64,000 nt of DNA from Minisyncoccota bacterium. GTDB taxonomy: Bacteria > Patescibacteriota > Minisyncoccia > Phycocordibacterales > PALSA-1337. Below the pieces are notes generated by a model. The model did not search any database. It had not been told where the DNA came from and saw nothing but the letters and a program-made list of their open reading frames with translations. The DNA lies in assembly GCA_036516895.1 (NCBI GenBank), contig DATDZD010000002.1, positions 13,769 to 77,768 of the forward strand. The letters run 5' to 3'. Each line of letters begins with the position of its first letter. Within the stretch, counting starts at the first letter, position 1. Below, in pieces: positions 2,423-53,948 of the stretch. Position numbers and translations under genes: made by a program.

Positions 2423-3637
2423 TTATATTGCATCTACAAGAGAGTACATTGGAGTAATCATGGCCACAGCAAAGAACCCCACCGCGACTGCTATAACAAT
2501 CATGAGAAACGGCTCAATGACAGTAGACATATCTTTTGTCTTCTGGTCAACATCTTCTTCGTAGTATACAGCCACTCCGATAAGCATTTCTCCTATTTTT
2601 CCAGTTTCTTCTCCCACATTTATCATCTCGCTCATAAAGATGGGATAAATATCTGGATTTTCGGAAAAAACTTTTGAGAGAGGGTCGCCTTTCTCTACAG
2701 CTGTAGCAGATTTCTCAAGCACTTTTCTGTAGTGTACATTTTGCACAATATCAGAAGTAATTCTCAATGATTCCAAAATATCAACATCAGATTCTATAAG
2801 AGAAGAGAGGGTTCTCGCAGTGCGAGCAACATTGACTTCTTTTATTAGATTGCCAATAAGAGGTATCTTCAGAATAATTTTGTGGATAATATTTTTGCCA
2901 CGCGCGCTTTTTGACCATAAATAAAAAGCGAAGTAAAGAATAATAAAGCCAGTAAAAATAATAATGCCGTCATTTTGCAGTGCATTGCTTATAAATAACA
3001 CAATTCTTGTTGAAATTGGTAGAGAAAGATGTAATTCTGTAAAAGTCTTTGTTAAAGTAGGAACAACATATGTCAAAAGAATAATAGTTATTATAATCAT
3101 GGCCAATAAAATAACAGCCGGATACAACAAAGCGCCACGAATCCTTCTCTGTAGAGTATAATTTTTCTCCATTTGCAGAGTAACTATGCGCAATGACTCG
3201 CTCATAGTTCCGCTTTGTTCTCCAGAATGGACCATGGCTATCATGAGAGATGAGAACATATTCTTAAATGAACCCATAGCGTCGCTCAACGGCTTGCCTT
3301 TTCGCACATCTTCATTGAGAGTTGAGATAATGCTTTTGACTTTCTTGTTAGTTCCCTGCCTTTCCATAACAGAGAGAGCTTGGGACATGGAAAGTCCAGC
3401 TTTTATCATAGCGCCAAGACTTCTGGAGAAATTTATTTTCTCTTGAGTCCTTATGGAATTGATAAACGGAATCGATATGCTATTTAAAGTCAGCATTTTT
3501 TTATTTTCTTCTACCGATATCACTTCTTCTCCTGATGTTTTAATCATTTTGTACAACTCAAAGCGGTCTTTGGCGTCTTGCTCGCCTTTATGAGTTTCTC
3601 CACTTGGCTTTTTTGCTTTGAAAATGAAATGTGGCAT
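2423..3637 (-). CDS. pilC: Type IV pilus assembly platform protein PilC (GspF family)
   Basis: 404 aa with a polytopic membrane architecture and duplicated GspF-like regions. It lies adjacent to the PilB ATPase and the pilins. Confidence 0.8.
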   Translation of the reverse strand: MPHFIFKAKKPSGETHKGEQDAKDRFELYKMIKTSGEEVISVEENKKMLTLNSISIPFINSIRTQEKINFSRSLGAMIKAGLSMSQALSVMERQGTNKKVKSIISTLNEDVRKGKPLSDAMGSFKNMFSSLMIAMVHSGEQSGTMSESLRIVTLQMEKNYTLQRRIRGALLYPAVILLAMIIITIILLTYVVPTLTKTFTELHLSLPISTRIVLFISNALQNDGIIIFTGFIILYFAFYLWSKSARGKNIIHKIILKIPLIGNLIKEVNVARTARTLSSLIESDVDILESLRITSDIVQNVHYRKVLEKSATAVEKGDPLSKVFSENPDIYPIFMSEMINVGEETGKIGEMLIGVAVYYEEDVDQKTKDMSTVIEPFLMIVIAVAVGFFAVAMITPMYSLVDAI

Positions 3638-3696: not shown

Positions 3697-5457
3697 CTAT
3701 TCAGATATGACACGAAGAACTTCTTCTATGGTAGTAAACCCTTGCACCGCTTTGAAAATACCATCTTCAATCATGGTCATCATTCCCTCTTCCTTTGCTT
3801 GCACTTCTATATCTTCTGATGTTCCTCCTTTTATAATGATATCTTTTATTGTCTGATTTACTTTTAGAACTTCATGAATTCCTATGCGACCCTTATAGCC
3901 ATCATCGTCTTTTCCGGCAACTGCTTTCCAAAAAGGAATTTTCTCCCAAGATTCTGTATTTTTGATGATTTTCTCTACTTTAAGCACTTGAAGGACACGA
4001 TCCAAATTAACAGACTTTGATAAAGACGCTATTTCCGGCTTTGACAGAAAATATTTTTCTTTATTTTCAGAGAGACGACGCACAAGCCGTTGGGCAATAA
4101 TGACATTTATAGTGGAAACTAGAAGGAATGGCTCTATTTTCATATCAATAAGTCGCGGTATGGCTCCAGCAGCGCTATTGGTATGTAGAGTAGAGAGAAC
4201 AAGATGACCCGTCAAAGATGCATTAACCGCTAATCCAGCAGTTTCATTATCACGAATCTCGCCAACCATGATAATATCAGGGTCTTGGCGAACCAATGTA
4301 CGCAAGCCGGAGGCAAATGTAAAGCCGATTTCGGGATTGACTTGCGTCTGATTTATACGCTTCATTTGATATTCTACAGGGTCCTCAATAGTGGAAATAT
4401 TAACATCTGGCTGGTTCAAAATATCAAGAATGGTATAGAGAGTTGTGGTTTTTCCAGAGCCAGTCGGGCCTGTGGTCAGTATCATTCCTGTAGTCTGTAT
4501 GACGGCGTTATGTATTCTTTCAAGTCCTTCTCCATGAAAAGCCAGATATTCCAGAGTGAACCCCGAAACATTTTCCCTAAGAAGACGCATGACTGTTTTT
4601 TCTCCATAATATGTGGGAAGAATAGAAACGCGAAAAGAAACTTTCTCATTATTCATATCCACCTTGAAACGACCATCCTGTGGGAGGCGTTTCTCATCAA
4701 GCTTAAGATTTGAAAGGACTTTTATGCGAGCGGTAATAGATGGTTCGGCATTTTTTGGCAAAATCATAGCATCATGTAGAAGACCATCTATGCGATAGCG
4801 AACCAAAAGTTCTTCTTCCATTGGTTCAATATGTATATCTGAAGCATTCTGCAAAATGGCGTGTTTAAGCAAAGTATCCACAATACGCACCACAGGCAAA
4901 TCTTCGGCTATTTTTTTTAAATCTTTCTCTGTTGTAGGATTTCCATTCTTTATGCCCGCTTCTTCCGCTATAGTCTTTAGCGTGGCTGATTCTTTTTGAA
5001 TCAAATCTCCAAATTCCGCCTTTAGACTCTTTTGATATTGAACAATTACATTTTTTATTGATTCTGTGTCGGTCAGACGAGGCAATATCTTCAGATTAAC
5101 TTTTTTTTTGACAAAATCAATAGCAGAGAGGTCATTGACTTCAAGCATTGCCACCTCCAAAGTATCATCTGTTTTCTTGAATGCTATAATATTGTGATTC
5201 CTAGCCACCGGTTCTGGAATCATAGACAATGTTTCAAAAGGAATCTTTCTTGACTTCAAATCAACAAAAGGAATGCCAAGAACATATGCCTGCATGCGAC
5301 GGAGATTGTCTTCTGTGATTTTTCCCGAGTTTACGAGAATCTCTCCCACCCCTGTCCCTTTTTTCTCGGCTTCTTTGAGAGCGTAATCAAAGTCAGTTCT
5401 AGAAACAAGATTAGAGTCAATAATAAATTTATTAAGTTGCGAGTCAAGGATGAGCAT
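3697..5457 (-). CDS. pilB: Type IV pilus assembly ATPase PilB (GspE family)
   Basis: Walker A TGPTGSGKTTTLY, Walker B and Asp/His boxes (DPDIIMVGEIRD, TGHLVLSTLHTNSA) are present. The N-terminal GSPII_E-like domain is also present. The likely start is the internal Met (MLILDSQ...) rather than the track start at 5547. Confidence 0.85.
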   Translation of the reverse strand: MLILDSQLNKFIIDSNLVSRTDFDYALKEAEKKGTGVGEILVNSGKITEDNLRRMQAYVLGIPFVDLKSRKIPFETLSMIPEPVARNHNIIAFKKTDDTLEVAMLEVNDLSAIDFVKKKVNLKILPRLTDTESIKNVIVQYQKSLKAEFGDLIQKESATLKTIAEEAGIKNGNPTTEKDLKKIAEDLPVVRIVDTLLKHAILQNASDIHIEPMEEELLVRYRIDGLLHDAMILPKNAEPSITARIKVLSNLKLDEKRLPQDGRFKVDMNNEKVSFRVSILPTYYGEKTVMRLLRENVSGFTLEYLAFHGEGLERIHNAVIQTTGMILTTGPTGSGKTTTLYTILDILNQPDVNISTIEDPVEYQMKRINQTQVNPEIGFTFASGLRTLVRQDPDIIMVGEIRDNETAGLAVNASLTGHLVLSTLHTNSAAGAIPRLIDMKIEPFLLVSTINVIIAQRLVRRLSENKEKYFLSKPEIASLSKSVNLDRVLQVLKVEKIIKNTESWEKIPFWKAVAGKDDDGYKGRIGIHEVLKVNQTIKDIIIKGGTSEDIEVQAKEEGMMTMIEDGIFKAVQGFTTIEEVLRVISE

Positions 5458-5696
5458 TGATATTATTATATCATGAGTATAAAAATAACCCCCAATTCGC
5501 CAAAGCTTTCGCCGAGACAAATCGAGGGTCAAACACTGACCATCCACTGTATCTTAAACACCAAGATTTTCTCTGGCGTGTTTATGCAGTTTTGTCAAGT
5601 CTAGCATTTTTGCTCCTCTCTGCTATACTTTCTACATCTGAAGTTCGCCTGCCGGCGAACATTTTTTATAAGAAATTACAAACTAAACACAAAACC

Positions 5697-12308: not shown

Positions 12309-12414
12309 TTATACACAGGTTTATCCACCGAGTTATAAACAGGTTACACACAGTTTATCCACTTATCCACATAAAGTTATCCACTTTTTGCAATATTATC
12401 CACAGTTATCCACA
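12309..12414 (+). promoter_or_regulatory. Array of about nine same-orientation DnaA-box-like 9-mers, three of them perfect TTATCCACA, spaced about 11 bp apart and followed by an AT-rich stretch immediately upstream of clpP
   Basis: Boxes start at about 12309, 12321, 12333, 12344, 12355, 12363, 12378, 12396 and 12406. The perfect copies are at 12363, 12396 and 12406. Confidence 0.5.
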
Positions 12415-12443
12415 GTTTTAATTAAAATTAAACCAAAAATACC

Positions 12444-14712: not shown

Positions 14713-14728
14713 ACTATAATCATGTCTA

Positions 14729-14827
14729 GGTAAAATGGCTCGCCTGCTTGCGGTCGGAAGCACTTATTTTTGTCTCGCAAGCTCGAAAAAATAAGTCTTC
14801 CTCTCCGCAGCTCGCACGATTTTACTG
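14729..14827 (+). repeat. Intergenic imperfect-palindromic repeat, family copy A (about 99 bp) with conserved termini GGTAAAATGGCTCGC...GCTCGCACGATTTTAC
   Basis: Directly seen. It lies immediately downstream of the rny stop. There are nested inverted repeats (GCTTGCG/CGCAAGC and GGAAGCACTTATTTTT/AAAAAATAAGTCTTCC). It is homologous to the copies at 23562, 26795, 39388 and 43510. Confidence 0.6.
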
Positions 14828-14960
14828 GAAACTAAATATCTTGCATTATTTTGACTTATATGTTCCTATTTTTACCCCATTGCGTATAAAATGGCTTGTT
14901 ATATAATGATGTGGAGGTTATATACTGTTTCAGTTGATATTATTAATAATAACAATAAAT

Positions 14961-16087: not shown

Positions 16088-16161
16088 TGGTGCGGGATGG
16101 GAGAGTCGAACTCCCCACCACAGTTTGGAAAACTGTTATTTTACCGATAAACTAATCCCGC
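16088..16161 (-). tRNA. tRNA-Gly (anticodon UCC), CCA encoded
   Basis: Reverse complement GCGGGATTAGTTTATCGGTAAAATAACAGTTTTCCAAACTGTGGTGGGGAGTTCGACTCTCCCATCCCGCACCA. The acceptor stem is GCGGGAT/ATCCCGC. The anticodon stem ACAGT/ACTGT encloses the loop UUUCCAA, giving UCC. The T-loop is TTCGACT. An initial read as Trp was rejected after folding. Confidence 0.7.
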
Positions 16162-16270
16162 TTTCGTTTATTCATACTTTATAATTATTTACTTTTCCTT
16201 AATTCACCCATGAACAAAACTTATACTACCAGAAATATTTTTTTTTACTACTTCCCCACTTTCATGTCCT

Positions 16271-16702
16271 TTACATATTCCCAGTATGCTCATTCTCAAC
16301 AATCTTTTTTATCTCATCAACTTCTTCTTTCATCTCTTTTACTGTCTCACTCAACTCTTCTATTTGTCTTTCTTCTACTCCAACTTCTTTCTCTGTTCTT
16401 TCAGTTGCTTTTTTTTGATGTTTCAATCCAGATATAAGAATAGTGTCTCCAATAAAATAAGAGACGAACAGCCCTGTAGCCAAAAGGATGGCGGTAACGA
16501 TTAACATATTAATTGGTTCATAAAAGATGAAACCGAGAATACCGCCTTTTGCTTGTAAAATATCTGCTGTATGCCACACTCCTCTCCAAAATAATACAAT
16601 AGCTATACCACCAATGATTGTGTATATAATAGGATAATGGCTCAAATGACCTCGTACTTTATCTTCAAATTTATCAAAAAAGATTATGATTGATTTCCAC
16701 AT
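16271..16702 (-). CDS. Hypothetical membrane protein (3-4 TM) with an acidic coiled-coil C-terminus
   Basis: 143 aa. Hydrophobic segments IIGGIAIVLFW, GFIFYEPINMLIVTAILLATGLFVSYFIG. Confidence 0.45.
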   Translation of the reverse strand: MWKSIIIFFDKFEDKVRGHLSHYPIIYTIIGGIAIVLFWRGVWHTADILQAKGGILGFIFYEPINMLIVTAILLATGLFVSYFIGDTILISGLKHQKKATERTEKEVGVEERQIEELSETVKEMKEEVDEIKKIVENEHTGNM

Positions 16703-16759
16703 GTAAGTATTTAAATACCATCATAACATTATTTAATTCATAATACTGTAATCTATATA

Positions 16760-16835
16760 TGGTCGGAGCGCCGGGATTCGAACCCGGAGTCGCCTGTTCC
16801 CAAAACAGGAATGTTAACCGTTACACCACGCTCCG
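16760..16835 (-). tRNA. tRNA-Pro (anticodon UGG), CCA encoded
   Basis: Reverse complement CGGAGCGTGGTGTAACGGTTAACATTCCTGTTTTGGGAACAGGCGACTCCGGGTTCGAATCCCGGCGCTCCGACCA. The anticodon stem CCTGT/ACAGG encloses the loop UUUGGGA. The T-loop is TTCGAAT. Confidence 0.8.
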
Positions 16836-17009
16836 ATGATTTTCTTTAACTTTCTTTCTTTAACTTTTTTAACTTTTTATTACTAAGAACTTTCACATAC
16901 TAGCACAATAACCAATAAAACTCCATATTTTTAGCTCTGATTTGATAAAAACCTTATGTAAATATGAATTTATATAATATCTGCAAAATAATGTTTGTTG
17001 TGATGAGAT

Positions 17010-17396
17010 TTATAGAATAACATTTTCCATAAAAGTAACCTTTGCTCTTCTCGTTTTTTGGTCCATACGAACAACAATGACATGGAATTGAAATTCGGTA
17101 TCCAGCTTATACTTTCTCTCGAGCAAATAAGTCTGAACAGCTCTTTTAAGGCGTTTGCATTTAAGTTCATGGACATTTTCTTCTGGTCTATATTCATCTT
17201 TTGACCTATTATTTGTCTTTTTTACTATTATGCTTTTGACCTCAATGAAGTGGATTATGCCATCTTTTGCAACGATAATATCAATTTCACCCCACTTTTT
17301 GCTATAGTTTCTCTCAATAATAAGAAAATTATGCTTCTTTAGCCACTTACAAGCAATTTCCTCACCAATATCTCCTATAAGACGGTTATAAGCCAT
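17010..17396 (-). CDS. yraN: YraN/UPF0102 family endonuclease
   Basis: 128 aa. N-terminus [55 protein letters not shown] fits the UPF0102 signature (GE.D.I). Confidence 0.7.
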
Positions 17397-17408
17397 ATTA
17401 TTTGTCCT

Positions 17409-17448
17409 TTATACACATTGTCCACAGACTTATCCACAGTTATACACA
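17409..17448 (+). promoter_or_regulatory. Second phased array of DnaA-box-like 9-mers (TTATACACA, TTGTCCACA, TTATCCACA perfect, TTATACACA) at about 10-11 bp spacing
   Basis: Directly seen between the yraN start (17396, minus strand) and the tRNA-Gly(GCC) 3' end (17491). All four boxes share one orientation. Confidence 0.45.
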
Positions 17449-17490
17449 TCCATACACAGTATGACCCCCAATAATCTACAACTTTCCTAA

Positions 17491-17564
17491 TGGTGCGGGC
17501 ACCGGGAATCGAACCCGAATCTCGTCCTTGGCAAGGACGTGTTCTACCACTAAACCATGCCCGC
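17491..17564 (-). tRNA. tRNA-Gly (anticodon GCC), CCA encoded
   Basis: Reverse complement GCGGGCATGGTTTAGTGGTAGAACACGTCCTTGCCAAGGACGAGATTCGGGTTCGATTCCCGGTGCCCGCACCA. The anticodon stem CGTCC/GGACG encloses the loop UUGCCAA. Confidence 0.8.
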
Positions 17565-17748
17565 ATTTTGTTATTTTTACATATTATATTATGCAAGTGT
17601 AAATCACTTTCAATTCAGTATAAGATAATTCGTCTTTTTTTACCAGATTTTTTGCTATATAATACCACTTTCCTACCCCCCCCCACCAATACTTTTATCC
17701 CATTTATTTCTCTCTATTCTCTCCACTTTATGGGGTACAGATCACTTG

Positions 17749-17821
17749 TGCGCTCGGAGGGACTCGAACCCCCAACCCCCTGGTCCGAAGCCAGGTGCTC
17801 TATCCATTGAGCCACGAGCGC
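17749..17821 (-). tRNA. tRNA-Arg (anticodon UCG), CCA not encoded
   Basis: Reverse complement GCGCTCGTGGCTCAATGGATAGAGCACCTGGCTTCGGACCAGGGGGTTGGGGGTTCGAGTCCCTCCGAGCGCA. The anticodon stem CCTGG/CCAGG encloses the loop CUUCGGA. Confidence 0.75.
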
Positions 17822-20663: not shown

Positions 20664-21467
20664 TTATAAAGAACACTTGAGTATAATTTCAATAGGACAA
20701 TGGTCTGAACCGAAAACATTATCTAAAATCTTGGTGCTACTTACATACTTCAATAGTGGAGAAGTGACAAAGAAATAATCAATTCTCCAACCAACATTTC
20801 TCTCTCTTGAGAAAGTTTTCATATCCCAATAAGTATATTTGTCCTTAAGATTTGGATATAAATGACGAAATACATCAATATAACCATTATTCAAAACTTG
20901 ATCAATCCACGCTCTTTCTATAGGCAAAAATCCTGTATTATCTTTATTTTCTTTTGGTCTAGCTAGGTCTATTTCGTTATGAGCAGTATTTGTATCTCCA
21001 CAAAATATTATTTCGTAGCCATTTCTCTTGTGTCTATTTATATATTTTAAAAATTCATCATAAAAATTTAACTTATATTCGAGTCGTTCTGGACACCCAC
21101 CACCATTTGGGAAATAGGTATTTATGATTAAGATTTTATTTGAACCAGAGAGCAAAGAACCCTTTTTGAAGAATAGACCTAGAAATCGTCCTTCTTGGTC
21201 ATATTCTTCAATTCCAAAACCATATTCAACTCTTTCCGGCTTAACTTTTGTATATACAGCTACTCCACTATATCCTTTTCTACCCTTTGAATGGTCAAAA
21301 TATCCATAATATCCGTAGGGATTACATATGCCTTCTTCTAACTGTTCTGGGTGAGCTTTTGTTTCTTGAATACAATAAACATCTGGTGACTCTTGTAAAA
21401 ACCAATCAAATCCGCCCTTTTTAACATTTGCTCGCAAACCATTTACATTCCAAGAGATAATTTTCAT
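20664..21467 (-). CDS. xth: Exodeoxyribonuclease III (AP endonuclease, EEP family)
   Basis: MKIISWNVNGLRANVKKG...YCIQETKAHPEQL and a C-terminal SDHCPIE are the Xth/APE1 family signatures. Confidence 0.85.
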   Translation of the reverse strand: MKIISWNVNGLRANVKKGGFDWFLQESPDVYCIQETKAHPEQLEEGICNPYGYYGYFDHSKGRKGYSGVAVYTKVKPERVEYGFGIEEYDQEGRFLGLFFKKGSLLSGSNKILIINTYFPNGGGCPERLEYKLNFYDEFLKYINRHKRNGYEIIFCGDTNTAHNEIDLARPKENKDNTGFLPIERAWIDQVLNNGYIDVFRHLYPNLKDKYTYWDMKTFSRERNVGWRIDYFFVTSPLLKYVSSTKILDNVFGSDHCPIEIILKCSL

Positions 21468-23557: not shown

Positions 23558-23561
23558 TAAA

Positions 23562-23659
23562 TAAAATCATGCGAGCATGCGGGGAGGAAACCCTATTTTT
23601 TCGAACCTGAGAGACAAAAATAAGTGCTTCCGACCGAAAGTAGGCGAGCTGATTTTACC
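23562..23659 (-). repeat. Intergenic palindromic repeat, family copy D in reverse orientation
   Basis: The reverse complement reads GGTAAAATCAGCTCGCCTACTTTCGGTCGGAAGCACTTATTTTTGTCTC...CCCCGCATGCTCGCATGATTTTAT. It lies between the NYN gene stop and the next gene start. Confidence 0.55.
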
Positions 23660-23670
23660 AAGATAAAAAA

Positions 23671-24714: not shown

Positions 24715-25077
24715 ATGAATAAAAAAGACATTCAATATTTCAAAAACAAACTAGAAAAAGAAAAACGGCTTCTTGAAGACGAACTTGGCACTATTGGCAA
24801 GGCAAATTCTGAAAGTCCAAGCGGTTGGGAAGTAACCGCAGGCAAAATAGAAGTTGACAGCGCTGATGAAAACGAAACCGCCGACAAAATGGAAGAAATG
24901 GAAGAAAATGAACTTATCTTTGGTCAACTAGAGAAACAATTGAGTGAAATAAAGTACGCTTTAGAACGCATTGAGAAAGGTGCTTACGGCATATGTGAAA
25001 TATCAGGTAAACCGATTGAGAAAGACCGTTTAGAGGCAAATCCTTCGGCCAGAACTTGCAAGCAACATATGAAGTAG
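24715..25077 (+). CDS. DksA/TraR family C4-type zinc-finger protein
   Basis: Coiled-coil N-terminus with a C-terminal CEISGKPIEKDRLEANPSARTCKQH four-Cys zinc finger. Confidence 0.6.
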   Translation: MNKKDIQYFKNKLEKEKRLLEDELGTIGKANSESPSGWEVTAGKIEVDSADENETADKMEEMEENELIFGQLEKQLSEIKYALERIEKGAYGICEISGKPIEKDRLEANPSARTCKQHMK

Positions 25078-25145: not shown

Positions 25146-25200
25146 ATTTTATCAAAATTTTAAAACTTTTTTATCAGAATTTTATCTCGGTCTGCTAGAG
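25146..25200 (+). promoter_or_regulatory. Conserved roughly 55 bp motif (ATTTTATCAAAATTTTA...TTTATCTCGGTYTG.TA) upstream of comM, shared with the region upstream of the gene at 53580
   Basis: Two copies, at 25146-25200 and 53481-53535, align with about 40 of 52 identities. This includes an identical 17-mer and a 15/17 match over TTTATCTCGGT. Confidence 0.35.
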
Positions 25201-25207
25201 TGGGAGA

Positions 25208-26770
25208 ATGAGCGTATCAAAAACATATAGTGCACAACTTTCTGGTCTTAAGACTCATATAGTAACTATAGAAGTGGACCTTTCAAATGGTCTTCATGCT
25301 TTTGTCATAGTCGGACTTGGAGATAAAGCAGTTGAAGAAGCGAAAGACCGTATTTCAGCGGGAATAAAAAATAGTGGATATATTTCACCAAAACAAAAAA
25401 ATCAAAAGGTTGTAATATCTCTTGCTCCTGCCGACCTTAGAAAAGAAGGACCTTCTTTTGACCTTGGCATGGCTCTTTGTTATCTCAAAGCAAGTGGAGA
25501 TATTAATTTTGATGCTGAAAAGAAACTTTTTCTTGGAGAGCTTTCTCTTGAAGGTCAGTTGAGAAAAATAAGCGGAGTGCTTCCTCTAGTCAAAGGAGCT
25601 TATGAAAAAGGATTTAGAGAAATATTTCTTCCTAAAGAAAATGCAATGGAAGCTGGGTTAGTGAAGGGTGTGACCATATATGCTGTTTGTAGTCTAGATG
25701 AAACAATAGGACATCTTATAAATCGGAAAAATGGTTTTATCAAAGCGTATCCGCCAACAAAAATCCTATACGAAAAACAGTCTTTTGATACTGATTTCTC
25801 TTTTATCCAAGGACAAGAAACTGCCAAACGAGGTTTAGAGATAGCAGCGGCGGGCGGACACAATATCGCCATGTATGGACCGCCGGGAACTGGAAAAACA
25901 ATGCTTGCCAGAGCATTTCAGACCATATTGCCTCCATTGAACCATGAAGAAATCCTAGAGGTTACAAGCATACATTCACTGGCGCGTATCTTGGACAAGC
26001 CGTTTATAACTTATCCGCCGTTTAGGTCTCCACATCACACATCCTCATATGCATCTCTAGTGGGAGGAGGACCATTCCCCAAGCCAGGAGAAATAACTCT
26101 GGCTCACCGCGGAGTGCTTTTTCTTGATGAATTTCCAGAATTTGACAGAAACGCCATTGATGCTCTGCGCCAACCACTTGAAGACCATTTCATTACAATT
26201 TCTAGAATAAAAGGCGTCATAGCCTTTCCCGCTCAATGTATTCTAATAGCCAGTATGAATCCCTGTCCTTGCGGGTATGGAAAAGAAAAGGGATGTTTGT
26301 GTACAGACAAAGACATAACTCGTTATAGAAGAAAAATATCAGGACCTATTATTGACCGTATAGACTTATGGGTTTCTGTATCAAAGGTGGAATATCAAAA
26401 ACTTGCAGGTCCCTACAAAGATTCTTCAATTAGTCCTTCCAAAAATTCCACAGAATTAAGCCGTGATTCCGAATCAATAAGAAAAAGAGTTTTAATAGCT
26501 CGCAAATCTCAAAAAAGAAGATTCGTAAGTAAAAAAATAACTAACAAGAGAATAAATGGCGAAATGAGTGTTTCCGATATTGAAAAATGTATCACTTTGT
26601 CTATTGATATAAGAAATCTTCTTACCACTTCTGCAGAAAAATTGTCCTTATCGGGCAGAGCATTTCATCGTGTCATAAAAGTGTCTCGGACAATAGCGGA
26701 TTTGGAAGGTGATAAAGAAATTAAAAAAGAGCATATTTTAGAAGCACTTCAATACAGGCAGAAGTTCTAG
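25208..26770 (+). CDS. comM: YifB/ComM family Mg-chelatase-like AAA+ ATPase
   Basis: N-terminal Lon-like domain (THIVTIEVDLSNGLHAFVIVGLGD), Walker A GPPGTGKTMLA, Walker B LFLDEFPEF, and the C-terminal ChlI-like domain. Confidence 0.85.
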   Translation: MSVSKTYSAQLSGLKTHIVTIEVDLSNGLHAFVIVGLGDKAVEEAKDRISAGIKNSGYISPKQKNQKVVISLAPADLRKEGPSFDLGMALCYLKASGDINFDAEKKLFLGELSLEGQLRKISGVLPLVKGAYEKGFREIFLPKENAMEAGLVKGVTIYAVCSLDETIGHLINRKNGFIKAYPPTKILYEKQSFDTDFSFIQGQETAKRGLEIAAAGGHNIAMYGPPGTGKTMLARAFQTILPPLNHEEILEVTSIHSLARILDKPFITYPPFRSPHHTSSYASLVGGGPFPKPGEITLAHRGVLFLDEFPEFDRNAIDALRQPLEDHFITISRIKGVIAFPAQCILIASMNPCPCGYGKEKGCLCTDKDITRYRRKISGPIIDRIDLWVSVSKVEYQKLAGPYKDSSISPSKNSTELSRDSESIRKRVLIARKSQKRRFVSKKITNKRINGEMSVSDIEKCITLSIDIRNLLTTSAEKLSLSGRAFHRVIKVSRTIADLEGDKEIKKEHILEALQYRQKF

Positions 26771-26794
26771 TAAAATCGTAAAAAATATCATCTA

Positions 26795-26966
26795 GGTAAA
26801 ATCGGCTCGCTTACTTGCGGTCGGAAGCACTTATTTTTGTCTCGCAAGCTCAAAAAAATAAATCTTCCTCCTTACAGGAGCGGTACACCTTTCGCATTTG
26901 ATTACAAATGCTCAAGGTCTTGCGAAAGCTTCGCTTTCTCACCCCGCAAGCTCGCACGATTTTACT
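26795..26966 (+). repeat. Intergenic palindromic repeat, family copy B (about 172 bp, carries an internal insertion)
   Basis: GGTAAAATCGGCTCGCTTACTTGCGGTCGGAAGCACTTATTTTTGTCTCGCAAGCTC...CCCGCAAGCTCGCACGATTTTACTT. It lies between the convergent comM and M23 peptidase genes. Confidence 0.6.
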
Positions 26967-26977
26967 TAATTTAGATT

Positions 26978-28232: not shown

Positions 28233-30197
28233 ATGACTTCCAAAGAATTGAATACTAGACAGAGACAAGCTGTGGAAACACTAGCGGGACCTCTTCTTGT
28301 CTTGGCGGGAGCAGGAGCAGGAAAAACCAAGACAATAGGTCATAGAATCATAAATCTCATAAGAAGTGGTGTTGAACCATCAAAGATTTTAGCTATTACT
28401 TTTACAAATAAAGCCGCAGGGGAGATGCGTAATAGAATCTTTGACCTACTGGAAACTGATAAAAATCTCAATATTCCAATTTCTATATCAAAAATAAAAG
28501 AAGAGAAGCCCTTTATTAGCACATTTCATGCTCTTGGAGTGCATATTATTAAAGAAAATAGCTCTTTAATAGGGCTTCCTAGACATTTCAGCATATTTGA
28601 CAGAGGAGATTCAAAACAAGCCATAAAAAAATCTCTAGAATCTCTCAATATTGACCCAAAAAAATTTGAACCGGGAGCAATTCTTAATACAATTTCAAAA
28701 GAAAAAGGGAATGGGATAACACATGAAAAATATTCTAGCAATTTGAAAGGTGAACCACAGGAATTTTATCAAAAGATAGTTGCCGATACTTGGAGAGAAT
28801 ATGAAAAAATCTTAATGCAAGAAAAAGCGTTGGATTTTGATGATTTATTATTAAAAACAGCAATATTACTAAAGAACTATCCTGAAATAAGAGCCAAATA
28901 CAACTCTGTATGGGAACACATTCATATAGACGAATATCAAGACACAAACAAAGTGCAATACGATATAGCTACCATGTTGACTGGAGACAATAAGAATATC
29001 TGTGTTGTGGGCGATATTGACCAGATGATATATTCTTGGCGAGGCGCTGATTTGCAAAATATTTTGGACTTCGAAAAGACTTACCCTGAAGCAAAGGTTA
29101 TTCTTTTGGAAGAGAATTATCGTTCAACTCAAACCATCCTTTCCGCCGCCAATAATGTCATACGCAAAAATATTATGCGCCGTGAAAAAAATCTCTTTAC
29201 AAAAAATTCAGAAGGAGAAAAAATAGAGCTCATAATTTCCGTTAATGAAAAAGAAGAAGCTCGCATGATTGCTGACAATGCCAGAACCCTTATTGAAAAT
29301 GGCACTCGCCCTAGAGAGATCGCTGTCCTTTATAGAGCCAATTTCCAATCGCGAGTACTTGAAGAAGCATTCTTGAACAAAAATATTCCATATCAAATAC
29401 TCGGCGTTAGATTTTTTGAAAGAAAAGAAATAAAGGATACGCTTTCATTTATAAAATCCGCTCTAAATAGAGAAAGTGCGAGCGATATGGCGCGAATAGT
29501 AAATATTCCTCCGCGAGGTATAGGGAAATCGACTATTTTGAAGGTTATAATGAAACAAGAACATGCTTTGGGGCCATCTCTCAAGATAAAAGTCTCACAA
29601 TTTTTGCATTTATTGGACAGTATAAAACATATTGCCATGACCAAGAAACCTTCTGTATTGATTAAATATATCTTAAAAGAAACTGGTATGGAAATGACAT
29701 ATAAAAATGGTTCGGCAGAAGAACAAGAAAAGCTTGAAAACCTTAGAGAATTGACCTCCGTTGCAACACAATATGACTTTCTACCACCGGAAGAAGGGGT
29801 TGAGGCTCTTCTCTCAAATTCCGCTCTAGCTACAGACCAAGACGAGCTTGAAAAAAACAATAATGCGGTTAAACTTATGACTGTCCATGCGTCAAAAGGA
29901 TTGGAATTTGATGGCGTATTTATTTCCGGATTAGAGCAAGATTTATTTCCTCACCAAAGAATTGGAAAAGATGAAATAAGCCAATCCGAAGCGGAAGAAG
30001 AAAGAAGATTGTTTTATGTGGCTCTTACTAGGGCTAGAAAAAAAATCTTTTTGAGCTATTCCCAAACACGCACGATATATGGAACAACAAAAGTAAATAT
30101 ACCCTCCGAATTTATATCGGATATTGGGGACGAACACATAACGCAAAATAGTTATGAAAAACCGCGCGGGGTAAAATCTATTTTTATTGATTTTTAA
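28233..30197 (+). CDS. pcrA: ATP-dependent DNA helicase, UvrD/PcrA family
   Basis: LNTRQRQAVETLAGPLLVLAGAGAGKTKTIGHRIINLI (motif I). Also DEYQDTN, VVGDIDQMIYSWRGA, and C-terminal TVHASKGLEF and RRLFYVALTRARKK motifs. Confidence 0.85.
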   Translation: MTSKELNTRQRQAVETLAGPLLVLAGAGAGKTKTIGHRIINLIRSGVEPSKILAITFTNKAAGEMRNRIFDLLETDKNLNIPISISKIKEEKPFISTFHALGVHIIKENSSLIGLPRHFSIFDRGDSKQAIKKSLESLNIDPKKFEPGAILNTISKEKGNGITHEKYSSNLKGEPQEFYQKIVADTWREYEKILMQEKALDFDDLLLKTAILLKNYPEIRAKYNSVWEHIHIDEYQDTNKVQYDIATMLTGDNKNICVVGDIDQMIYSWRGADLQNILDFEKTYPEAKVILLEENYRSTQTILSAANNVIRKNIMRREKNLFTKNSEGEKIELIISVNEKEEARMIADNARTLIENGTRPREIAVLYRANFQSRVLEEAFLNKNIPYQILGVRFFERKEIKDTLSFIKSALNRESASDMARIVNIPPRGIGKSTILKVIMKQEHALGPSLKIKVSQFLHLLDSIKHIAMTKKPSVLIKYILKETGMEMTYKNGSAEEQEKLENLRELTSVATQYDFLPPEEGVEALLSNSALATDQDELEKNNNAVKLMTVHASKGLEFDGVFISGLEQDLFPHQRIGKDEISQSEAEEERRLFYVALTRARKKIFLSYSQTRTIYGTTKVNIPSEFISDIGDEHITQNSYEKPRGVKSIFIDF

Positions 30198-43487: not shown

Positions 43488-43509
43488 AATTATGCAAAAT
43501 TATTGTTTA

Positions 43510-43617
43510 GGTAAAATCAGCTCGCCTACTTGCGCTCGGAAGCTCTTTTATTTGTTCTCCGCCTGCTGGCGGATAAAAATAAAAGACTTCCTCACCGCAG
43601 GCTCGCACGATTTTACT
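43510..43617 (+). repeat. Intergenic palindromic repeat, family copy C
   Basis: GGTAAAATCAGCTCGCCTACTTGCGCTCGGAAGCTC...CACCGCAGGCTCGCACGATTTTACT. It lies between convergent genes (the 42228 gene and yidC). Confidence 0.6.
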
Positions 43618-43623
43618 AAATAA

Positions 43624-45152: not shown

Positions 45153-46499
45153 ATGAATGAACATGCACAACTTTGGGAAAATGCCTTGGTAGAAATAGAA
45201 CTTGCTGTTTCTGAAGCTAATTTTTCCACATGGTTTAAAGGCAGTTTTATCTTAAAGCAAGAAGAGGGAACTATATACCTCGGAGTTCCCAACTCGTTTA
45301 CTCGCGACTGGCTTTATAAGAAATTTCATCCTGTAATATTGAGAACTCTTAGAAAAATGAATGAGCAAGTCCGCTCTCTTGAGTATGTTATAACAAAAGA
45401 CGCTGAAAAGAAGAAAGCTGAGGAAAAAAAGAAAGCTTTGCCAGCGCCTACCACATCTATGCCTCTTCAAGATTTCTATATAAACAAAGAAGATAATCTA
45501 AATCCAAGATATATCTTTGAAAACTTTGTTGTGGGACCTTTCAATGAGCTTGCCAATGCCGCCTCAAGAACTGTGGTAAAAAATCCGGGTACTTCTTATA
45601 ATCCTTTGTTCATATATGGAAATACAGGTCATGGCAAAACTCATCTTATCCAAGCGATAGGAAATCATATAAAGCAGGACCATCCTCAGAAAAAGGTCTT
45701 TTATTTGACTTCTGAAAGATTTGGTTCAGAGTATTTCAGTGCTCTTCAGGGAAATAAAGCTCAACAATTTAAAGAAAAATACAGAAAGTATGATGTTATT
45801 ATTATGGACGATGTTCAATTTTTCTCGGGAAAAGATAAATTCCAAGAAGAATTTTTTTATCTTTTTAATACTTTCCACGAAAGCAATCGTCAACTCGTCT
45901 TTTCTTGCGACAAACACCCAAACTTCATTCCAGGACTTGAAGACCGCATTAAATCAAGATTTAATGCGGGCATGATTATTGAATTGCCCGCTCCAGACCA
46001 TGAATCTCGCATAGCTATCCTCAAAGCCAAAAGTTTGGCAAATAATGTAATGTTAGAAAATAACATTCTTGAATTTTTAGCTTCAAATATTGAAAGTAAT
46101 GTCAGGGAACTTGAAGGAGTAATAAATACTCTTGTTTGTCAGACACAGTTGAAAGGTCGTCCTCTTTCCTTGATTGAAATTAAAAATTTAGTAAAAAATA
46201 GCACAAAGCCAAAGAAAAACATATCAATAAAGGATGTTATAAAGCTTGTTTCAGATTTTTATAATATAAACGAGGAAAGTGTATATGATAAAACAAGAAA
46301 AAAAGAGGTGGTAAAGCCAAGACAAGTGATTATGTATCTTCTTAGAGAGGACTTAAATGTGTCATTTCCTTCAATAGGAGATAAAATGGGCGGAAGAGAC
46401 CATACAACAGTTATTCACTCTTATGAAAAAGTTAGAGAAGAAATCAAAACTGATTCAATTTTAATGGAGGAAATATCCCAAATACGGTCCATGTTATAA
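45153..46499 (+). CDS. dnaA: Chromosomal replication initiator protein DnaA
   Basis: 448 aa. The AAA+ region has NPLFIYGNTGHGKTHLIQAIGN and IIMDDVQFFSGKD. The C-terminal domain IV has a DnaA signature-like IGDKMGGRDHTTVIHSYEKV. Confidence 0.9.
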   Translation: MNEHAQLWENALVEIELAVSEANFSTWFKGSFILKQEEGTIYLGVPNSFTRDWLYKKFHPVILRTLRKMNEQVRSLEYVITKDAEKKKAEEKKKALPAPTTSMPLQDFYINKEDNLNPRYIFENFVVGPFNELANAASRTVVKNPGTSYNPLFIYGNTGHGKTHLIQAIGNHIKQDHPQKKVFYLTSERFGSEYFSALQGNKAQQFKEKYRKYDVIIMDDVQFFSGKDKFQEEFFYLFNTFHESNRQLVFSCDKHPNFIPGLEDRIKSRFNAGMIIELPAPDHESRIAILKAKSLANNVMLENNILEFLASNIESNVRELEGVINTLVCQTQLKGRPLSLIEIKNLVKNSTKPKKNISIKDVIKLVSDFYNINEESVYDKTRKKEVVKPRQVIMYLLREDLNVSFPSIGDKMGGRDHTTVIHSYEKVREEIKTDSILMEEISQIRSML

Positions 46500-46716
46500 A
46501 TTGTGGATATTGTGTGGAAAGATACTGTATTTATGTGTATAACTTTAGATAAAAATATGATAAATAAAAAACTTATAGAAGATATTAGAAGTAATTCAAA
46601 AATTATCAACAATTTAATTATTAAAATATATTTAAAAATATCGGTTTAAAAAAGTTATCCACATATCCACAGGACTAATAATAGTAATAAGTATTAATAT
46701 AAATTAAATTAAAAAT
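46500..46716 (+). promoter_or_regulatory. dnaA-dnaN intergenic AT-rich region with tandem DnaA boxes (TTATCCACA perfect, ATATCCACA), an oriC candidate part
   Basis: The sequence aaaaGTTATCCACATATCCACAGGact sits within a 217 bp spacer of more than 80% A+T. Confidence 0.45.
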
Positions 46717-53317: not shown

Positions 53318-53480
53318 TTTAAGAAATAAAATTTTTAAAATAGAAGATATTCAAGAATTATTCGCATCGGTAAAAGACAATTTGTAAAAATTATGACGAA
53401 ATAGAAGTATTACTATAAAAATAATCATCTGACAACAAAATCTCCACTTCCCGCAAGGGGATTTTTTGTTGTGTAAACTA

Positions 53481-53535
53481 AATTTTATCAAAATTTTATT
53501 ATTTTTTCATTAAAACTTTATCTCGGTTTGATATG
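53481..53535 (+). promoter_or_regulatory. Second copy of the conserved upstream motif ATTTTATCAAAATTTTA...TTTATCTCGGTTTGATA, 45 bp before the gene at 53580
   Basis: See the alignment with 25146-25200. Confidence 0.35.
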
Positions 53536-53579
53536 GTTTCTAAGTAATTTACATTATTAGCTTAAAAACACATATTATT

Positions 53580-53948
53580 ATGGAAACACAAACAGGTATA
53601 GGAGAATTTGGACCAATTTATGAAGGAATAAAAGGAAAATATGCTATAGATTTTTTATTGAAAAAGAAATCTGGGGAAGTTCCTGGTGCAATGAAAAGAA
53701 AAGAATTGGGAAATATTGATTTTATTTATGGAAAGCAGGGTGAGCAAGGTTACGGATTAGCTCATATTGAAGAATATCATCCAGATGTTCTTCCTTATCT
53801 TGTGTCAATTATTCAACATGGAGAAATATTCAAGCAAGCTAAAGATCGCATTATTATTGTTCATAAAGTTCCTTTAGAAAAAGGGGTGGCCGTGATAAGA
53901 CTGGATTGGAATGGTATACGGAAACAGTGGCTTGTTAGTGCTTTTTAA
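53580..53948 (+). CDS. Hypothetical protein
   Basis: 122 aa with no recognised family. It is preceded by the conserved motif shared with comM. Confidence 0.45.
   Translation: METQTGIGEFGPIYEGIKGKYAIDFLLKKKSGEVPGAMKRKELGNIDFIYGKQGEQGYGLAHIEEYHPDVLPYLVSIIQHGEIFKQAKDRIIIVHKVPLEKGVAVIRLDWNGIRKQWLVSAF

What the first reader, a model, noticed from the sequence alone, without database searches (positions are those of the whole stretch)
25146..25200. Conserved roughly 55 bp upstream element shared by comM and the hypothetical gene at 53580
ATTTTATCAAAATTTTA (17/17 identical) ... TTTATCTCGGT.TG.TA (15/17) occurs at 25146-25200 and 53481-53535. Each copy sits 10-45 bp upstream of a + strand start codon. 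This suggests a shared promoter, operator or 5'-UTR element, for instance a competence or stress regulon, or a small repeat.
Basis: seen in the sequence. Interest (0 to 1): 0.5.

Follow-up and report, generated by a model that had tools for sequence, protein, structure and literature searches.

The report
Shared promoter-operator of putative competence regulon
The two look-alike stretches are copies of a conserved promoter-plus-operator module that, in a group of uncultured groundwater Patescibacteria, sits in front of DNA-uptake genes (comM, comEC, dprA, a pilin) and small nuclease or toxin genes, giving a first handle on how these bacteria might control DNA uptake.

Summary
Window 25146-25201 and 53482-53537 share a 52-56 nt ungapped match (83%), and they are the only two sites in the 64 kb that score above 12 bits with a motif model (60.1 and 54.6 bits).

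The element is not a mobile repeat, an att site or a structured RNA. It is a promoter with no -35 box and an extended -10 (TGnTAnnGT). At comM the -10 ends 6 nt before the ATG, which implies a leaderless mRNA. Upstream lie 7-bp direct repeats (TTTTATC) in 11-bp phase, at about -28, -39, (-50) and -61.

The module is conserved upstream of comM orthologues with 73-79% protein identity. It also lies upstream of PBECR1 homologues in unrelated genomic contexts. ComEC genes chosen by protein homology alone carry it, one of them on the same contig as a motif-bearing comM. A metagenome scan found it before comEC, a split-off ComEC metallo-beta-lactamase gene, dprA, a pilin, MazF-like, HigB-like and LPD3-like genes.

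One lineage carries a diverged repeat (TCTTNAT) that keeps the 11-bp architecture before both comM and comEC.

Best reading: an unidentified DNA-binding regulator binds the repeats in tandem and controls a competence-associated regulon. The geometry matches PhoB-type class II activation. The regulator, the sign of regulation and the transcription start sites are inferred, not shown.

The parts
25146..25201 (+). Copy 1 of the promoter-operator module, upstream of comM
   Evidence: Sequence. Repeat family D8. Weight-matrix score 60.1 bits. Aligned with orthologous comM upstream regions in A1.
25147..25153 (+). Distal direct repeat TTTTATC, about -61..-55 relative to the predicted start
   Evidence: In 18 of 25 non-redundant metagenome sites this position holds TTTTATC with at most 1 mismatch, although the search pattern did not constrain it.
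25158..25164 (+). Degenerate repeat TTTTAAA in the same 11-bp phase, about -50..-44
   Evidence: Only partly conserved in homologues.
25169..25175 (+). Middle direct repeat TTTTATC, -39..-33, where a -35 box would lie
25180..25186 (+). Proximal direct repeat TTTTATC, -28..-22, 9 bp upstream of the -10 hexamer
   Evidence: The spacing to the -10 is fixed in all but one of the homologous sites.
25193..25201 (+). Extended -10 element TGCTAGAGT (TG at -15/-14, hexamer TAGAGT at -12..-7)
   Evidence: In 7 of 60 window genes TGnTAnnnT ends 6-8 nt before the start codon, against 0.27 expected.
25208..26770 (+). comM (YifB/ComM Mg-chelatase-like AAA+ ATPase). The A of its ATG at 25208 is the predicted transcription start, giving a leaderless mRNA.
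   Evidence: Pfam Mg_chelatase 5.1e-86, ChlI and Mg_chelatase_C. The start site is inferred from the -10 position only.
53448..53467 (+). Terminator-like hairpin plus T-run closing the preceding + strand gene, just upstream of copy 2
   Evidence: Similar hairpins precede the element at comM in L092, L093, L134 and L135.
53469..53478 (+). Extra upstream box TTGTGTAAAC, about -75..-66. Present in copy 2 and many homologous sites, absent from copy 1.
   Evidence: TTGTGTAAC in L092, L093, L094, L095, L099.
53482..53537 (+). Copy 2 of the module, upstream of the PBECR1 gene
   Evidence: D8. 54.6 bits. A1.
53483..53489 (+). Distal direct repeat TTTTATC of copy 2
53505..53511 (+). Degenerate middle repeat of copy 2 (TTTCATT in register)
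   Evidence: This is the main difference from copy 1.
53516..53522 (+). Proximal repeat of copy 2 (CTTTATC)
53529..53537 (+). Extended -10 element TGATATGGT of copy 2. Predicted start near 53543-53544, giving a leader of about 36 nt.
   Evidence: PBECR1 homologues have the same -10 (TGTTATGGT or TGCTATGGT) with a 30-nt leader or with a 6-nt gap to the ATG.
53580..53948 (+). 122-aa PBECR1-domain protein (phage-Barnase-EndoU-ColicinE5/D-RelE-like nuclease 1)
   Evidence: Pfam PF18809, 1.6e-8. It matches the interior of large phage proteins in PHROGs.

Best explanation
Both copies are instances of one conserved cis-regulatory module of about 56 bp (about 70 bp with the extra upstream box).

Anatomy:
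- The 3' end is a promoter for the housekeeping sigma factor. It has an extended -10 (TGnTAnnGT) and no -35 box.
- At comM the -10 ends 6 nt before the ATG, so the mRNA is predicted to be leaderless.
- Immediately upstream are 7-bp direct repeats (TTTTATC) in 11-bp phase, at -28..-22, -39..-33, a weak one near -50, and -61..-55. All lie on one face of the DNA helix.

Proposed mechanism: a sequence-specific DNA-binding protein, not yet identified, binds these repeats head to tail. From the position that a -35 box would occupy, it controls RNA polymerase. The most likely mode is class II activation, as PhoB does at pho boxes.

Regulon: the module marks a regulon in one Paceibacteria-like lineage of Patescibacteria.
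- It couples DNA uptake and recombination genes (comM, comEC, a separate ComEC metallo-beta-lactamase gene, dprA, a type IV pilin) with small nuclease or toxin genes (PBECR1, MazF-like, HigB/Gp49-like, LPD3-like).

Shown: the sequence anatomy, the conservation and the downstream gene set.
Inferred: the transcription starts, protein binding, the sign of regulation, and the link to competence as a physiological state.
For: 1. Specificity. Only two sites in 64 kb exceed 12 bits, at 60.1 and 54.6 bits. The shuffle maximum is 4.3 bits.

2. Conservation upstream of orthologues.
- The element lies upstream of comM in L092 (79% protein identity), L093 (76%), L135 (73%, 51 bits) and, degenerate, L134 (75%, 27 bits).
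- In every case the -10 ends 6 nt before the ATG, while the rest of the intergenic region has diverged.
- L107 from the metagenome scan is a further comM case.

3. Same module, other gene family, other contexts. PBECR1 homologues in L094, L095 and L096 sit next to secG, groES or other genes and still carry the module.

4. Metagenome scan.
- It gave 37 loci. Of 25 non-redundant good sites, 18 have TTTTATC (at most 1 mismatch) at the distal position, which the pattern did not constrain. Chance is 0.0035 per site.
- Fifteen of the 25 share the spacer AGGA.

5. Downstream genes confirmed by Pfam:
- ComEC PF03772 twice.
- A ComEC metallo-beta-lactamase part: weak Pfam hit (Lactamase_B, E 0.0024) in L125 only; L110 copy assigned by eye, no Pfam support.
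- DprA PF02481.
- An N_methyl pilin.
- PemK/MazF twice; a third MazF-like case in L125 was named by similarity only, not Pfam-checked.
- Gp49/HigB with an XRE-type partner, twice (partner named from sequence only).
- PBECR1.

6. Independent test with ComEC homologues chosen by protein similarity alone.
- L137 lies on the same contig as the L092 comM and has the element (57.9 bits) 6 nt before comEC.
- L139 has it at 60.0 bits.

7. Co-variation. In the GROS21 genome the comM upstream region (L136) and the promoter before comEC (L138) share a diverged element, 49 of 56 identical. Its repeats read TCTTNAT and are still in 11-bp phase.

8. The -10 assignment. TGnTAnnnT ending 6-8 nt before the start codon occurs at 7 of 60 window genes, against 0.27 expected.

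9. Geometry. The 7+4+7 bp repeat pair spans -39..-22 and lies 9 bp from the -10. From established knowledge, pho boxes lie 10 bp upstream of the -10. The repeat-to-(-10) spacing is fixed in all true sites but one. Fixed spacing is what is expected for an activator that must touch RNA polymerase.
Against: - No regulator has been identified. The window encodes no OmpR-family response regulator, and no DNA-binding family recurs next to the sites.
- There are no expression or transcription-start data.
- The core promoter resembles constitutive promoters of the same genome, so a repressor would fit equally well on that count.
- The type IV pilus machinery genes in the window lack the motif. These are the pilB-like genes at 3697-5547 and 61420-63234, the pilC-like gene at 2423-3637 and a pilin-like gene at 620-2416.
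- About half of the motif-bearing genes are not competence genes. They include toxins, a NUDIX gene, an IS200-like gene and a pentose-phosphate operon.
- dprA and the pilin are each represented once.
- The metagenome sample is biased by the search pattern.
- The motif is absent upstream of comM in relatives with 58% protein identity or less.
Confidence: 0.7

Rival explanations
1. Same operator array, opposite sign. A repressor binds the phased repeats across -39..-22 and blocks an extended -10 promoter that would otherwise be constitutive. This would resemble an SOS-type or stress-type switch, or a toxin-antitoxin-type autoregulator taken over by other genes.
For: - The core TGnTAnnnT box is the same type found at apparently constitutive leaderless genes in the window.
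- The repeats overlap the region that RNA polymerase must occupy.
- Several regulated genes are toxins of toxin-antitoxin type, and such promoters are classically repressed.
Against: - The distance between the proximal repeat and the -10 is fixed in all sites but one. Repressors do not need fixed spacing.
- Known competence regulons are driven by activators or sigma factors (established knowledge).
- No LexA-type box is present.
Confidence: 0.25
2. The conserved block is the recognition sequence of an alternative sigma factor dedicated to competence genes, analogous to ComX or SigH in Firmicutes, rather than an operator for a separate regulator.
For: - Competence regulons in Firmicutes use such sigma factors (established knowledge).
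- G at -8 of the hexamer is present in all 7 sites that were found without the pattern.
- The spacer AGGATTT in 15 of 25 sites resembles the SigH -35 core AGGAWWT.
Against: - TG at -15/-14 plus TA...T at the same distance from the ATG is the signature of the housekeeping promoters of this genome.
- The two window copies do not match AGGAWWT, and the -10 does not match RNNGAAT or the cin-box.
- The number of repeats varies from 2 to 5, at 11- or 22-bp steps. That fits a regulator array, not a single -35 box.
- TTTATC lies 9 or 20 bp from the -10, outside the usual 16-18 bp range for a -35 box.
Confidence: 0.12
3. A recently duplicated or mobile promoter cassette, small repeat or att site, with no shared regulation.
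For: - The two copies are direct repeats 28,336 bp apart.
- The hairpin + TTGTGTAAC + repeats context of copy 2 resembles the comM upstream region of other species more than copy 1 does.
Against: - The 28 kb between the copies is core genome: uvrD, ksgA, a type IV secretion-like cluster, yidC, rnpA, dnaA, dnaN, a penicillin-binding protein and a tRNA synthetase.
- There are no terminal inverted repeats or target duplications.
- Differences between the copies cluster in the spacers between the boxes.
- The element stays at orthologous positions across species.
- There are no hits in viral contigs.
Confidence: 0.04
4. A structured 5' leader RNA (riboswitch or small RNA), or merely intrinsically curved AT-rich DNA acting as an UP element.
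For: - T-tracts in 11-bp phase would bend DNA.
- Copy 2 and some homologues have 30-60 nt leaders.
Against: - Rfam gives no hit at either copy.
- The folding z-score of copy 1 is 0.05, and RNAalifold predicts no pairs on alignment A1.
- At comM and many other genes the element ends 6 nt before the ATG.
- The conserved letters include the non-A/T positions (the C of TATC, and CTCGG), and they co-vary as a unit in the GROS21 lineage. Simple curvature would not require that.
Confidence: 0.03

Closest known systems
Pho box promoters activated by PhoB (OmpR/PhoB winged-helix response regulators; class II activation)
   Same: - Two 7-bp direct repeats separated by 4 bp, giving an 11-bp period.
- The pair lies 9-10 bp upstream of the -10 hexamer and takes the place of a -35 box.
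- Further repeats extend upstream in phase.
- The distance to the -10 is fixed.
   Different: - The repeat sequence is TTTTATC, not CTGTCAT.
- The regulated genes concern DNA uptake and toxins, not phosphate.
- No OmpR-family regulator is encoded in the window. One lies in L094 but is not linked to the element.
- The promoter also has an extended -10 and gives leaderless mRNA.
Competence regulon promoter elements: CRP-S sites with Sxy/TfoX (Haemophilus, Vibrio, E. coli), the ComX cin-box (streptococci), ComK boxes (Bacillus subtilis)
   Same: - One dedicated cis-element is shared by comM, comEC/rec2, dprA and pilin genes.
- As in pneumococcus (fratricide genes) and Vibrio (type VI secretion), killing or nuclease functions appear in the same regulon.
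   Different: - None of the three sequence signatures is present.
- The architecture here is direct repeats next to an extended -10, not a palindrome, a special -10 or paired AT-boxes.
- The host is an uncultured Patescibacteria lineage for which no competence regulator is described in the papers searched.
AggR/Rns-type (AraC family) binding sites
   Same: The site is an A/T tract followed by TATC (WWWWWWWTATC) at a fixed distance upstream of an extended -10 type promoter (PMC6392122).
   Different: - AggR sites are single and lie 21-23 bp from the -10.
- Here TATC lies 9, 20 and 42 bp from the -10, and the sites are repeated in phase.
- No AraC-family gene was seen near any site.
BldC-type small winged-helix proteins that oligomerise head to tail on direct repeats
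   Same: A variable number of AT-rich direct repeats is bound cooperatively on one DNA face in promoters (PMC5859096).
   Different: BldC repeats are 9 bp units (AATTNNNNC), not 7+4 bp units. No BldC homologue was identified here.

Membership tests
Extended -10 sigma-70-type promoter giving a leaderless mRNA | TGn immediately upstream of a TAnnnT hexamer | tested here: met
   TGCTAGAGT at 25193-25201 and TGATATGGT at 53529-53537. The same holds in all homologous sites.
Extended -10 sigma-70-type promoter giving a leaderless mRNA | The -10 ends about 6-8 nt before the start codon, and there is no Shine-Dalgarno sequence | tested here: met
   - comM: 6 nt.
- 7 of 60 window genes show this arrangement, against 0.27 expected.
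- Many homologous sites have exactly 6 nt.
- Copy 2 instead has a 42-nt gap.
Extended -10 sigma-70-type promoter giving a leaderless mRNA | Transcription start mapped at the A of the ATG | not testable with these tools
   Needs 5'-RACE, dRNA-seq or metatranscriptome 5' ends.
Pho box / OmpR-PhoB class II promoter | Two 7-bp direct repeats with a 4-bp spacer, about 10 bp upstream of the -10, in place of a -35 box | tested here: met
   TTTTATC-AGAA-TTTTATC at 25169-25186, 9 bp before TAGAGT. Conserved.
Pho box / OmpR-PhoB class II promoter | Repeat consensus CTGTCAT | tested here: not met
   No match. The repeat is TTTTATC.
Pho box / OmpR-PhoB class II promoter | A cognate OmpR-family response regulator in the genome | tested here: inconclusive
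   phmmer with the L094 regulator finds none in the window or the other loci held. Only 64 kb of this genome is available.
CRP-S / Sxy competence regulon | TGCGA-N6-TCGCA site upstream of com genes | tested here: not met
   No match in either copy.
ComX (sigma X) cin-box regulon | TACGAATA at the -10 | tested here: not met
   No match.
ComK regulon | Paired AAAA-N5-TTTT boxes | tested here: not met
   No match in either copy.
Competence regulon in the functional sense | One cis-element shared by several DNA-uptake and DNA-processing genes in the same genome | tested here: met
   comM (L092) and comEC (L137) lie on the same contig of GCA_039740755.1 and carry near-identical elements. The variant element is shared by comM and comEC in the GROS21 scaffold. 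dprA and a pilin carry it in other contigs.
Competence regulon in the functional sense | Co-induction of these genes together with transformability | not testable with these tools
   Needs expression data or genetics.
LexA / SOS box | CGAAC-N4-GTTCG or CTGT-N8-ACAG palindrome | tested here: not met
   No match. No recA, lexA or uvr genes are among the downstream genes.
AggR/Rns (AraC-family) site | WWWWWWWTATC 21-23 bp upstream of the -10 | tested here: not met
   A/T tract plus TATC is present, but at 9, 20 and 42 bp from the -10.
IHF site | WATCAANNNNTTR conserved across homologous sites | tested here: not met
   Both window copies match (TATCAAAATTTTA). Homologues read TATCGA... or TATCGT..., so the match is not conserved.
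Integrated element att sites / MITE | Direct repeats flanking accessory DNA, or terminal inverted repeats with target duplication | tested here: not met
   The interior holds dnaA, dnaN, uvrD, yidC and other core genes. No inverted termini were found.
Structured RNA (Rfam family or riboswitch) | A covariance-model hit or a conserved secondary structure | tested here: not met
   No Rfam hit at the copies. Folding z-score 0.05. No consensus pairs.

The most novel reading that the evidence does not exclude
This motif could be the operator of the first competence regulon, and of its still unknown master regulator, to be recognised in Patescibacteria (candidate phyla radiation).

In this reading the regulator switches on the DNA channel (ComEC), the DNA processing proteins (DprA, ComM) and a pilin. 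It also switches on stand-alone nuclease or toxin domains otherwise known from phage and conjugative 'polyvalent' proteins (PBECR1, LPD3-like), plus MazF and HigB toxins.

That would couple DNA uptake to killing or nucleic-acid attack on neighbours or host cells, as fratricide does in pneumococcus. The regulator and its site co-evolve between lineages (TTTTATC versus TCTTNAT).
Probability: 0.3. Interest if true: 0.8.

Novelty: new variant of a known kind. Interest (0 to 1): 0.66.

Why it matters
Patescibacteria are a large, mostly uncultured part of bacterial diversity. They have tiny genomes and depend on outside sources of nucleotides.

Natural competence that needs ComEC has been shown experimentally in Saccharibacteria (PMC10633639). 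In the papers I could search, nothing is reported on how DNA uptake is regulated in this group.

A well-defined cis-element shared by comM, comEC, dprA and a pilin gene makes the question directly testable.
- The element can be used as bait to find the regulator.
- It can serve as a marker to list the regulon in any genome of the clade.
- It can serve as an inducible promoter candidate for genetic tools.

The apparent co-regulation with nuclease and toxin genes suggests a link between DNA uptake and antagonism that would be worth testing.

The finding also documents the promoter grammar of this lineage: extended -10, no -35 box, leaderless mRNA.

Tried and rejected
- attL/attR of an integrated island: rejected, because the 28 kb between the copies is core genome including dnaA and dnaN.
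- Structured RNA or riboswitch: rejected.
- General promoter shared by all genes: rejected, since only 2 sites occur in 64 kb.
- Known boxes (CRP-S, CRP, cin-box, ComK box, pho-box sequence, LexA, sigma-54, DnaA box): none present.
- IHF consensus: it matches the two window copies but is not conserved in homologues.
- SigH-like -35/-10: only a partial resemblance, and not in the window copies.
- Strain variation: ten contigs of the same population were identical across copy 2, so they gave no information.
- comM loci of GTDB species representatives (58% protein identity or less): too distant. No canonical motif was found, though L003 and L013 show similar 11-bp-phased TTTA repeats by eye.
- Viral contigs: no hit.
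- Search for the regulator:
  - no OmpR-type protein in the window;
  - no recurrent DNA-binding family near the sites;
  - PHROGs gave nothing useful for the unknown regulon proteins.
- About 10 of the 37 metagenome loci (L100, L101, L104, L117/L124/L133, L120/L132, L121, L131) match only the pattern, lack the flanking conservation, and were treated as chance hits.

Full report
**Observation**

The two stretches are in the sequence as described, on the + strand.
- The 17-mer ATTTTATCAAAATTTTA occurs exactly twice in the window, at 25146 and 53482.
- The box TTTATCTCGGTYTG occurs exactly twice, at 25181 and 53517, at the same distance from the 17-mer.
- The repeat finder lists the pair as a 52-nt ungapped repeat of 83% identity (family D8).

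An exact 17-mer repeat alone is not extraordinary, with 0.78 expected per Markov-1 window. The whole element is. A 56-column weight matrix trained only on sites from other genomes scores the two copies at 60.1 and 54.6 bits. Nothing else in the window passes 12 bits, and shuffled windows reach at most 4.3 bits.

**Context**

The window comes from a Patescibacteria (candidate phyla radiation) genome with about 36% G+C. The closest ComM proteins carry source names such as Paceibacterota and Patescibacteria group. The same population is assembled from several groundwater samples.

- Copy 1 lies between a dksA/traR-type zinc-finger gene (24715-25077) and comM (25208-26770; Mg_chelatase 5.1e-86).
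- Copy 2 lies after a terminator-like hairpin (53448-53461) and before a 122-aa PBECR1 nuclease-like gene (53580-53948; PF18809, 1.6e-8).
- The 28 kb between the copies holds uvrD, ksgA, a type IV secretion-like cluster, yidC, rnpA, dnaA, dnaN, a penicillin-binding protein and a tRNA synthetase. The copies therefore do not flank an inserted island.

**Anatomy**

Many genes in this genome lack a Shine-Dalgarno sequence. In 7 of 60 genes a TGnTAnnnT box ends 6-8 nt before the start codon, against 0.27 expected. This is the signature of extended -10 promoters that give leaderless mRNAs.

- Copy 1 ends in exactly such a box: TGCTAGAGT at 25193-25201, then GGGAGA, then the ATG.
- Copy 2 ends in TGATATGGT at 53529-53537, 42 nt before its ATG.

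Taking the A of the comM ATG as +1, the element holds TTTTATC at -28..-22, -39..-33 and -61..-55, and a weaker TTTTAAA near -50. These are direct repeats in 11-bp phase, and there is no -35 hexamer. Copy 2 has the same register, with a degenerate middle repeat and an extra box TTGTGTAAAC at about -75..-66.

No RNA structure is conserved. The folding z-score for copy 1 is 0.05, RNAalifold predicts no pairs, and Rfam gives no hit at the copies.

**Conservation**

Distant comM loci (58% protein identity or less, 80 species representatives) do not keep the motif. There the dksA-like gene often abuts comM.

Closer orthologues, found by protein search and fetched with their flanks, do keep it.
- L092 (79% identity), L093 (76%) and L135 (73%) have the element at 51-68 bits.
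- L134 (75%) has a degenerate copy at 27 bits.
- In each case the -10 ends 6 nt before the ATG, while the rest of the spacer has diverged (alignment A1).

PBECR1 homologues lie in quite different neighbourhoods, next to secG, groES or other genes. They carry the same module, including the TTGTGTAAC box.

**Wider distribution and regulon**

An exact-pattern scan of metagenome contigs returned 37 loci. The pattern was TTTATC-N5-TTTATCTC-N3-4-TGNTANNGT. About ten loci match only the pattern and look like chance. The rest share much more than the pattern required.
- Of 25 non-redundant sites, 18 have TTTTATC (at most 1 mismatch) at the unconstrained distal position. Chance is 0.0035 per site.
- Fifteen have the spacer AGGA, and 21 have TGA before the hexamer.

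The genes behind these promoters are as follows.
- ComEC, twice.
- A separate ComEC metallo-beta-lactamase-domain gene, twice with its own motif. Only the L125 copy has a Pfam hit, and it is weak (Lactamase_B, E 0.0024, below cut-off). The L110 copy gave no supporting Pfam hit, so that assignment rests on sequence resemblance by eye.
- DprA.
- A type IV pilin.
- One more comM (L107).
- PBECR1.
- MazF/PemK-like. Two are Pfam-confirmed (L103, L115). A third, in L125, was found with the matrix and named by similarity only.
- Gp49/HigB with an XRE-type partner, twice. The partner was named from its sequence only.
- A family of 123-147 aa with weak similarity to LPD3, four times.
- A small coiled-coil protein.
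- An IS200-like transposase.
- A NUDIX protein.
- A small ORF ahead of rpiB-rpe-tkt.

A weak site (18 bits) precedes a gene I read by eye as a pilB/comGA-like ATPase, on the same contig as the pilin. Viral contigs gave no hit.

**Independent test**

I took ComEC homologues by protein similarity only and fetched three.
- L137 is on the same contig of GCA_039740755.1 as the L092 comM. It has the element (57.9 bits) 6 nt before the comEC ATG, nearly identical to that genome's comM element.
- L139 (GCA_964655515.1) has it at 60.0 bits, also 6 nt before the ATG.
- L138 is on the same GROS21 scaffold as L136, whose comM lacks the canonical motif. There, the comM upstream region and a promoter ahead of a short mazF-like remnant plus comEC share a diverged element, 49 of 56 positions identical. 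Its repeats read TCTTNAT but are again in 11-bp phase next to the -10.

Keeping the architecture while the repeat sequence changes in parallel at two promoters of one genome is what is expected of a regulator and its sites evolving together.

**Mechanism**

Shown: the sequence anatomy, its conservation, and the set of downstream genes.

Inferred:
- (a) Transcription starts 7 nt after the -10. At comM that is the A of the ATG.
- (b) A sequence-specific protein binds the repeats in tandem.
- (c) The protein activates transcription.

The activator reading rests on geometry. The 7+4+7 bp pair spans -39..-22 and lies 9 bp from the -10, replacing the -35 box. Pho boxes bound by PhoB do the same (established knowledge). 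The spacing is fixed in all true sites but one.

A repressor that blocks an otherwise constitutive extended -10 promoter remains a serious alternative. A dedicated sigma factor is less likely, for three reasons.
- The TGnTA...T box and its distance to the ATG are those of housekeeping promoters here.
- The number of repeats varies from two to five.
- The repeats lie 9 or 20 bp from the -10.

The regulator is unknown. No OmpR-family protein is encoded in the window, and no DNA-binding family recurs near the sites.

**Comparison with known systems**

The element works like a pho box in geometry and like a competence-regulon box in gene content, but it is a member of none of the known motif families. 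CRP-S, cin-box, ComK box, the pho-box sequence, LexA, sigma-54 and DnaA signatures are all absent.

- AggR/Rns sites (A/T tract plus TATC at 21-23 bp from an extended -10; PMC6392122) resemble a single repeat, but the spacing and the multiplicity differ.
- BldC shows that small winged-helix proteins can oligomerise head to tail on direct repeats (PMC5859096), but its unit is 9 bp.
- The IHF consensus matches the two window copies but is not conserved in homologues.

Searches of the paper library found no description of a competence regulon, promoter motif or regulator in Patescibacteria. The one experimental study of competence in the group shows ComEC-dependent transformation in Saccharibacteria, and in the passages I read it says nothing on regulation (PMC10633639). 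That study also separates the essential type IV pilus functions from competence. This fits the absence of the motif from the pilus machinery genes in this window.

**Caveats**

- There are no expression data.
- The metagenome sample is shaped by the search pattern.
- About half of the motif-bearing genes are not classical competence genes, so 'competence-associated' could turn out to be a broader stress or conflict regulon.
- dprA and the pilin are single examples.
- Only 64 kb of the source genome could be scanned.

**Verdict**

This is a real, conserved promoter-operator module that defines a lineage-specific regulon centred on DNA-uptake genes. It is a new variant of a known kind of system. 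Interest is moderate to high, because it makes regulation of DNA uptake in an uncultured phylum directly testable.

Noticed in passing
window 57958-58012 and 58973-59027 (+): Two type III hammerhead ribozyme matches 1015 nt apart: 49.4 bits (above the Rfam gathering score) and 42.2 bits (below it, E 1.8e-7). Similar strong ribosome-binding sites with ATG follow at 58441-58477 and 59040-59076. The surrounding small ORFs have no Pfam match.
   Followed up: partly
window 14725-14830, 26790-26970, 43505-43621 (+) and 23560-23670 (reverse orientation): A roughly 110-nt imperfectly palindromic intergenic repeat in four copies (alignment A2). One copy starts just after the comM stop codon. It contains nested long stems (GGAAGCACTTATTTTT / AAAAAATAAGTCTTCC). 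No Rfam family matches. It may be a bidirectional terminator, a REP-like element or a small RNA.
   Followed up: partly
window 12345-12440, 17412-17438, 46645-46671: Clusters of perfect or near-perfect DnaA boxes (TTATCCACA). The dnaA (45153-46499) and dnaN (46717-47823) region lies in the window, so the replication origin is probably here. More than one box cluster exists.
   Followed up: no
window-wide, e.g. upstream of 20664-21467(-), 28233, 36436, 40019, 48181-50709(-), 55571-56434(-): Promoter grammar of this genome: TGnTAnnnT ends 6-8 nt before the start codon in 7 of 60 genes (0.27 expected). Most genes have no Shine-Dalgarno sequence. This implies widespread leaderless mRNAs.
   Followed up: yes
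window 4145-4290 vs 61853-61998: Two paralogous PilB/GspE-type ATPase genes (3697-5547 and 61420-63234, both on the - strand) share a 146-nt stretch at 73% identity. Neither carries the motif.
   Followed up: no
L137 10001-12732, L138 10001-12657, L139 7936-10600: In this clade ComEC is split into a Competence-domain gene and a separate metallo-beta-lactamase-domain gene. A superoxide-dismutase-like gene lies on the opposite strand between them and overlaps the 3' end of comEC by about 70 nt. The synteny recJ-rnhA-comEC is conserved.
   Followed up: no
L138 9856-10008: In the GROS21 scaffold the variant promoter is followed by a 50-codon ORF whose start resembles MazF-like proteins (MNYEKDFDNW...). 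It is apparently a remnant, lying directly ahead of comEC.
   Followed up: partly
L102 and L110 (contig Ga0172379_10000968): Three motif copies lie on one contig, each flanked by similar GC-rich hairpins (for example GCGCAGGTCTACCCTGCGC). One copy drives an IS200/Y1-transposase-like gene, which recalls REP elements and their transposases. Pilin gene clusters lie divergent to motif sites in L102 and L115.
   Followed up: no
L134 12810-15863: The UvrD-like helicase of this relative is 1017 aa long and carries an intein (Intein_splicing). The window's orthologue at 28233-30197 (654 aa) has none.
   Followed up: no
L087-L090 (contigs of 750-875 bp around window 53165-54040): Several assemblies of the same population break about 415 nt upstream of the PBECR1 gene and about 90 nt downstream of it. 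The ORF at 52166-52672 is 154 or 168 aa in different samples. This suggests a strain-variable spot.
   Followed up: no
window 16088-17821 (-): Four tRNA genes (Gly-tcc, Pro-tgg, Gly-gcc, Arg-tcg) are each separated by small protein genes (143 aa; a 128-aa UPF0102/NERD-like protein) rather than clustered.
   Followed up: no
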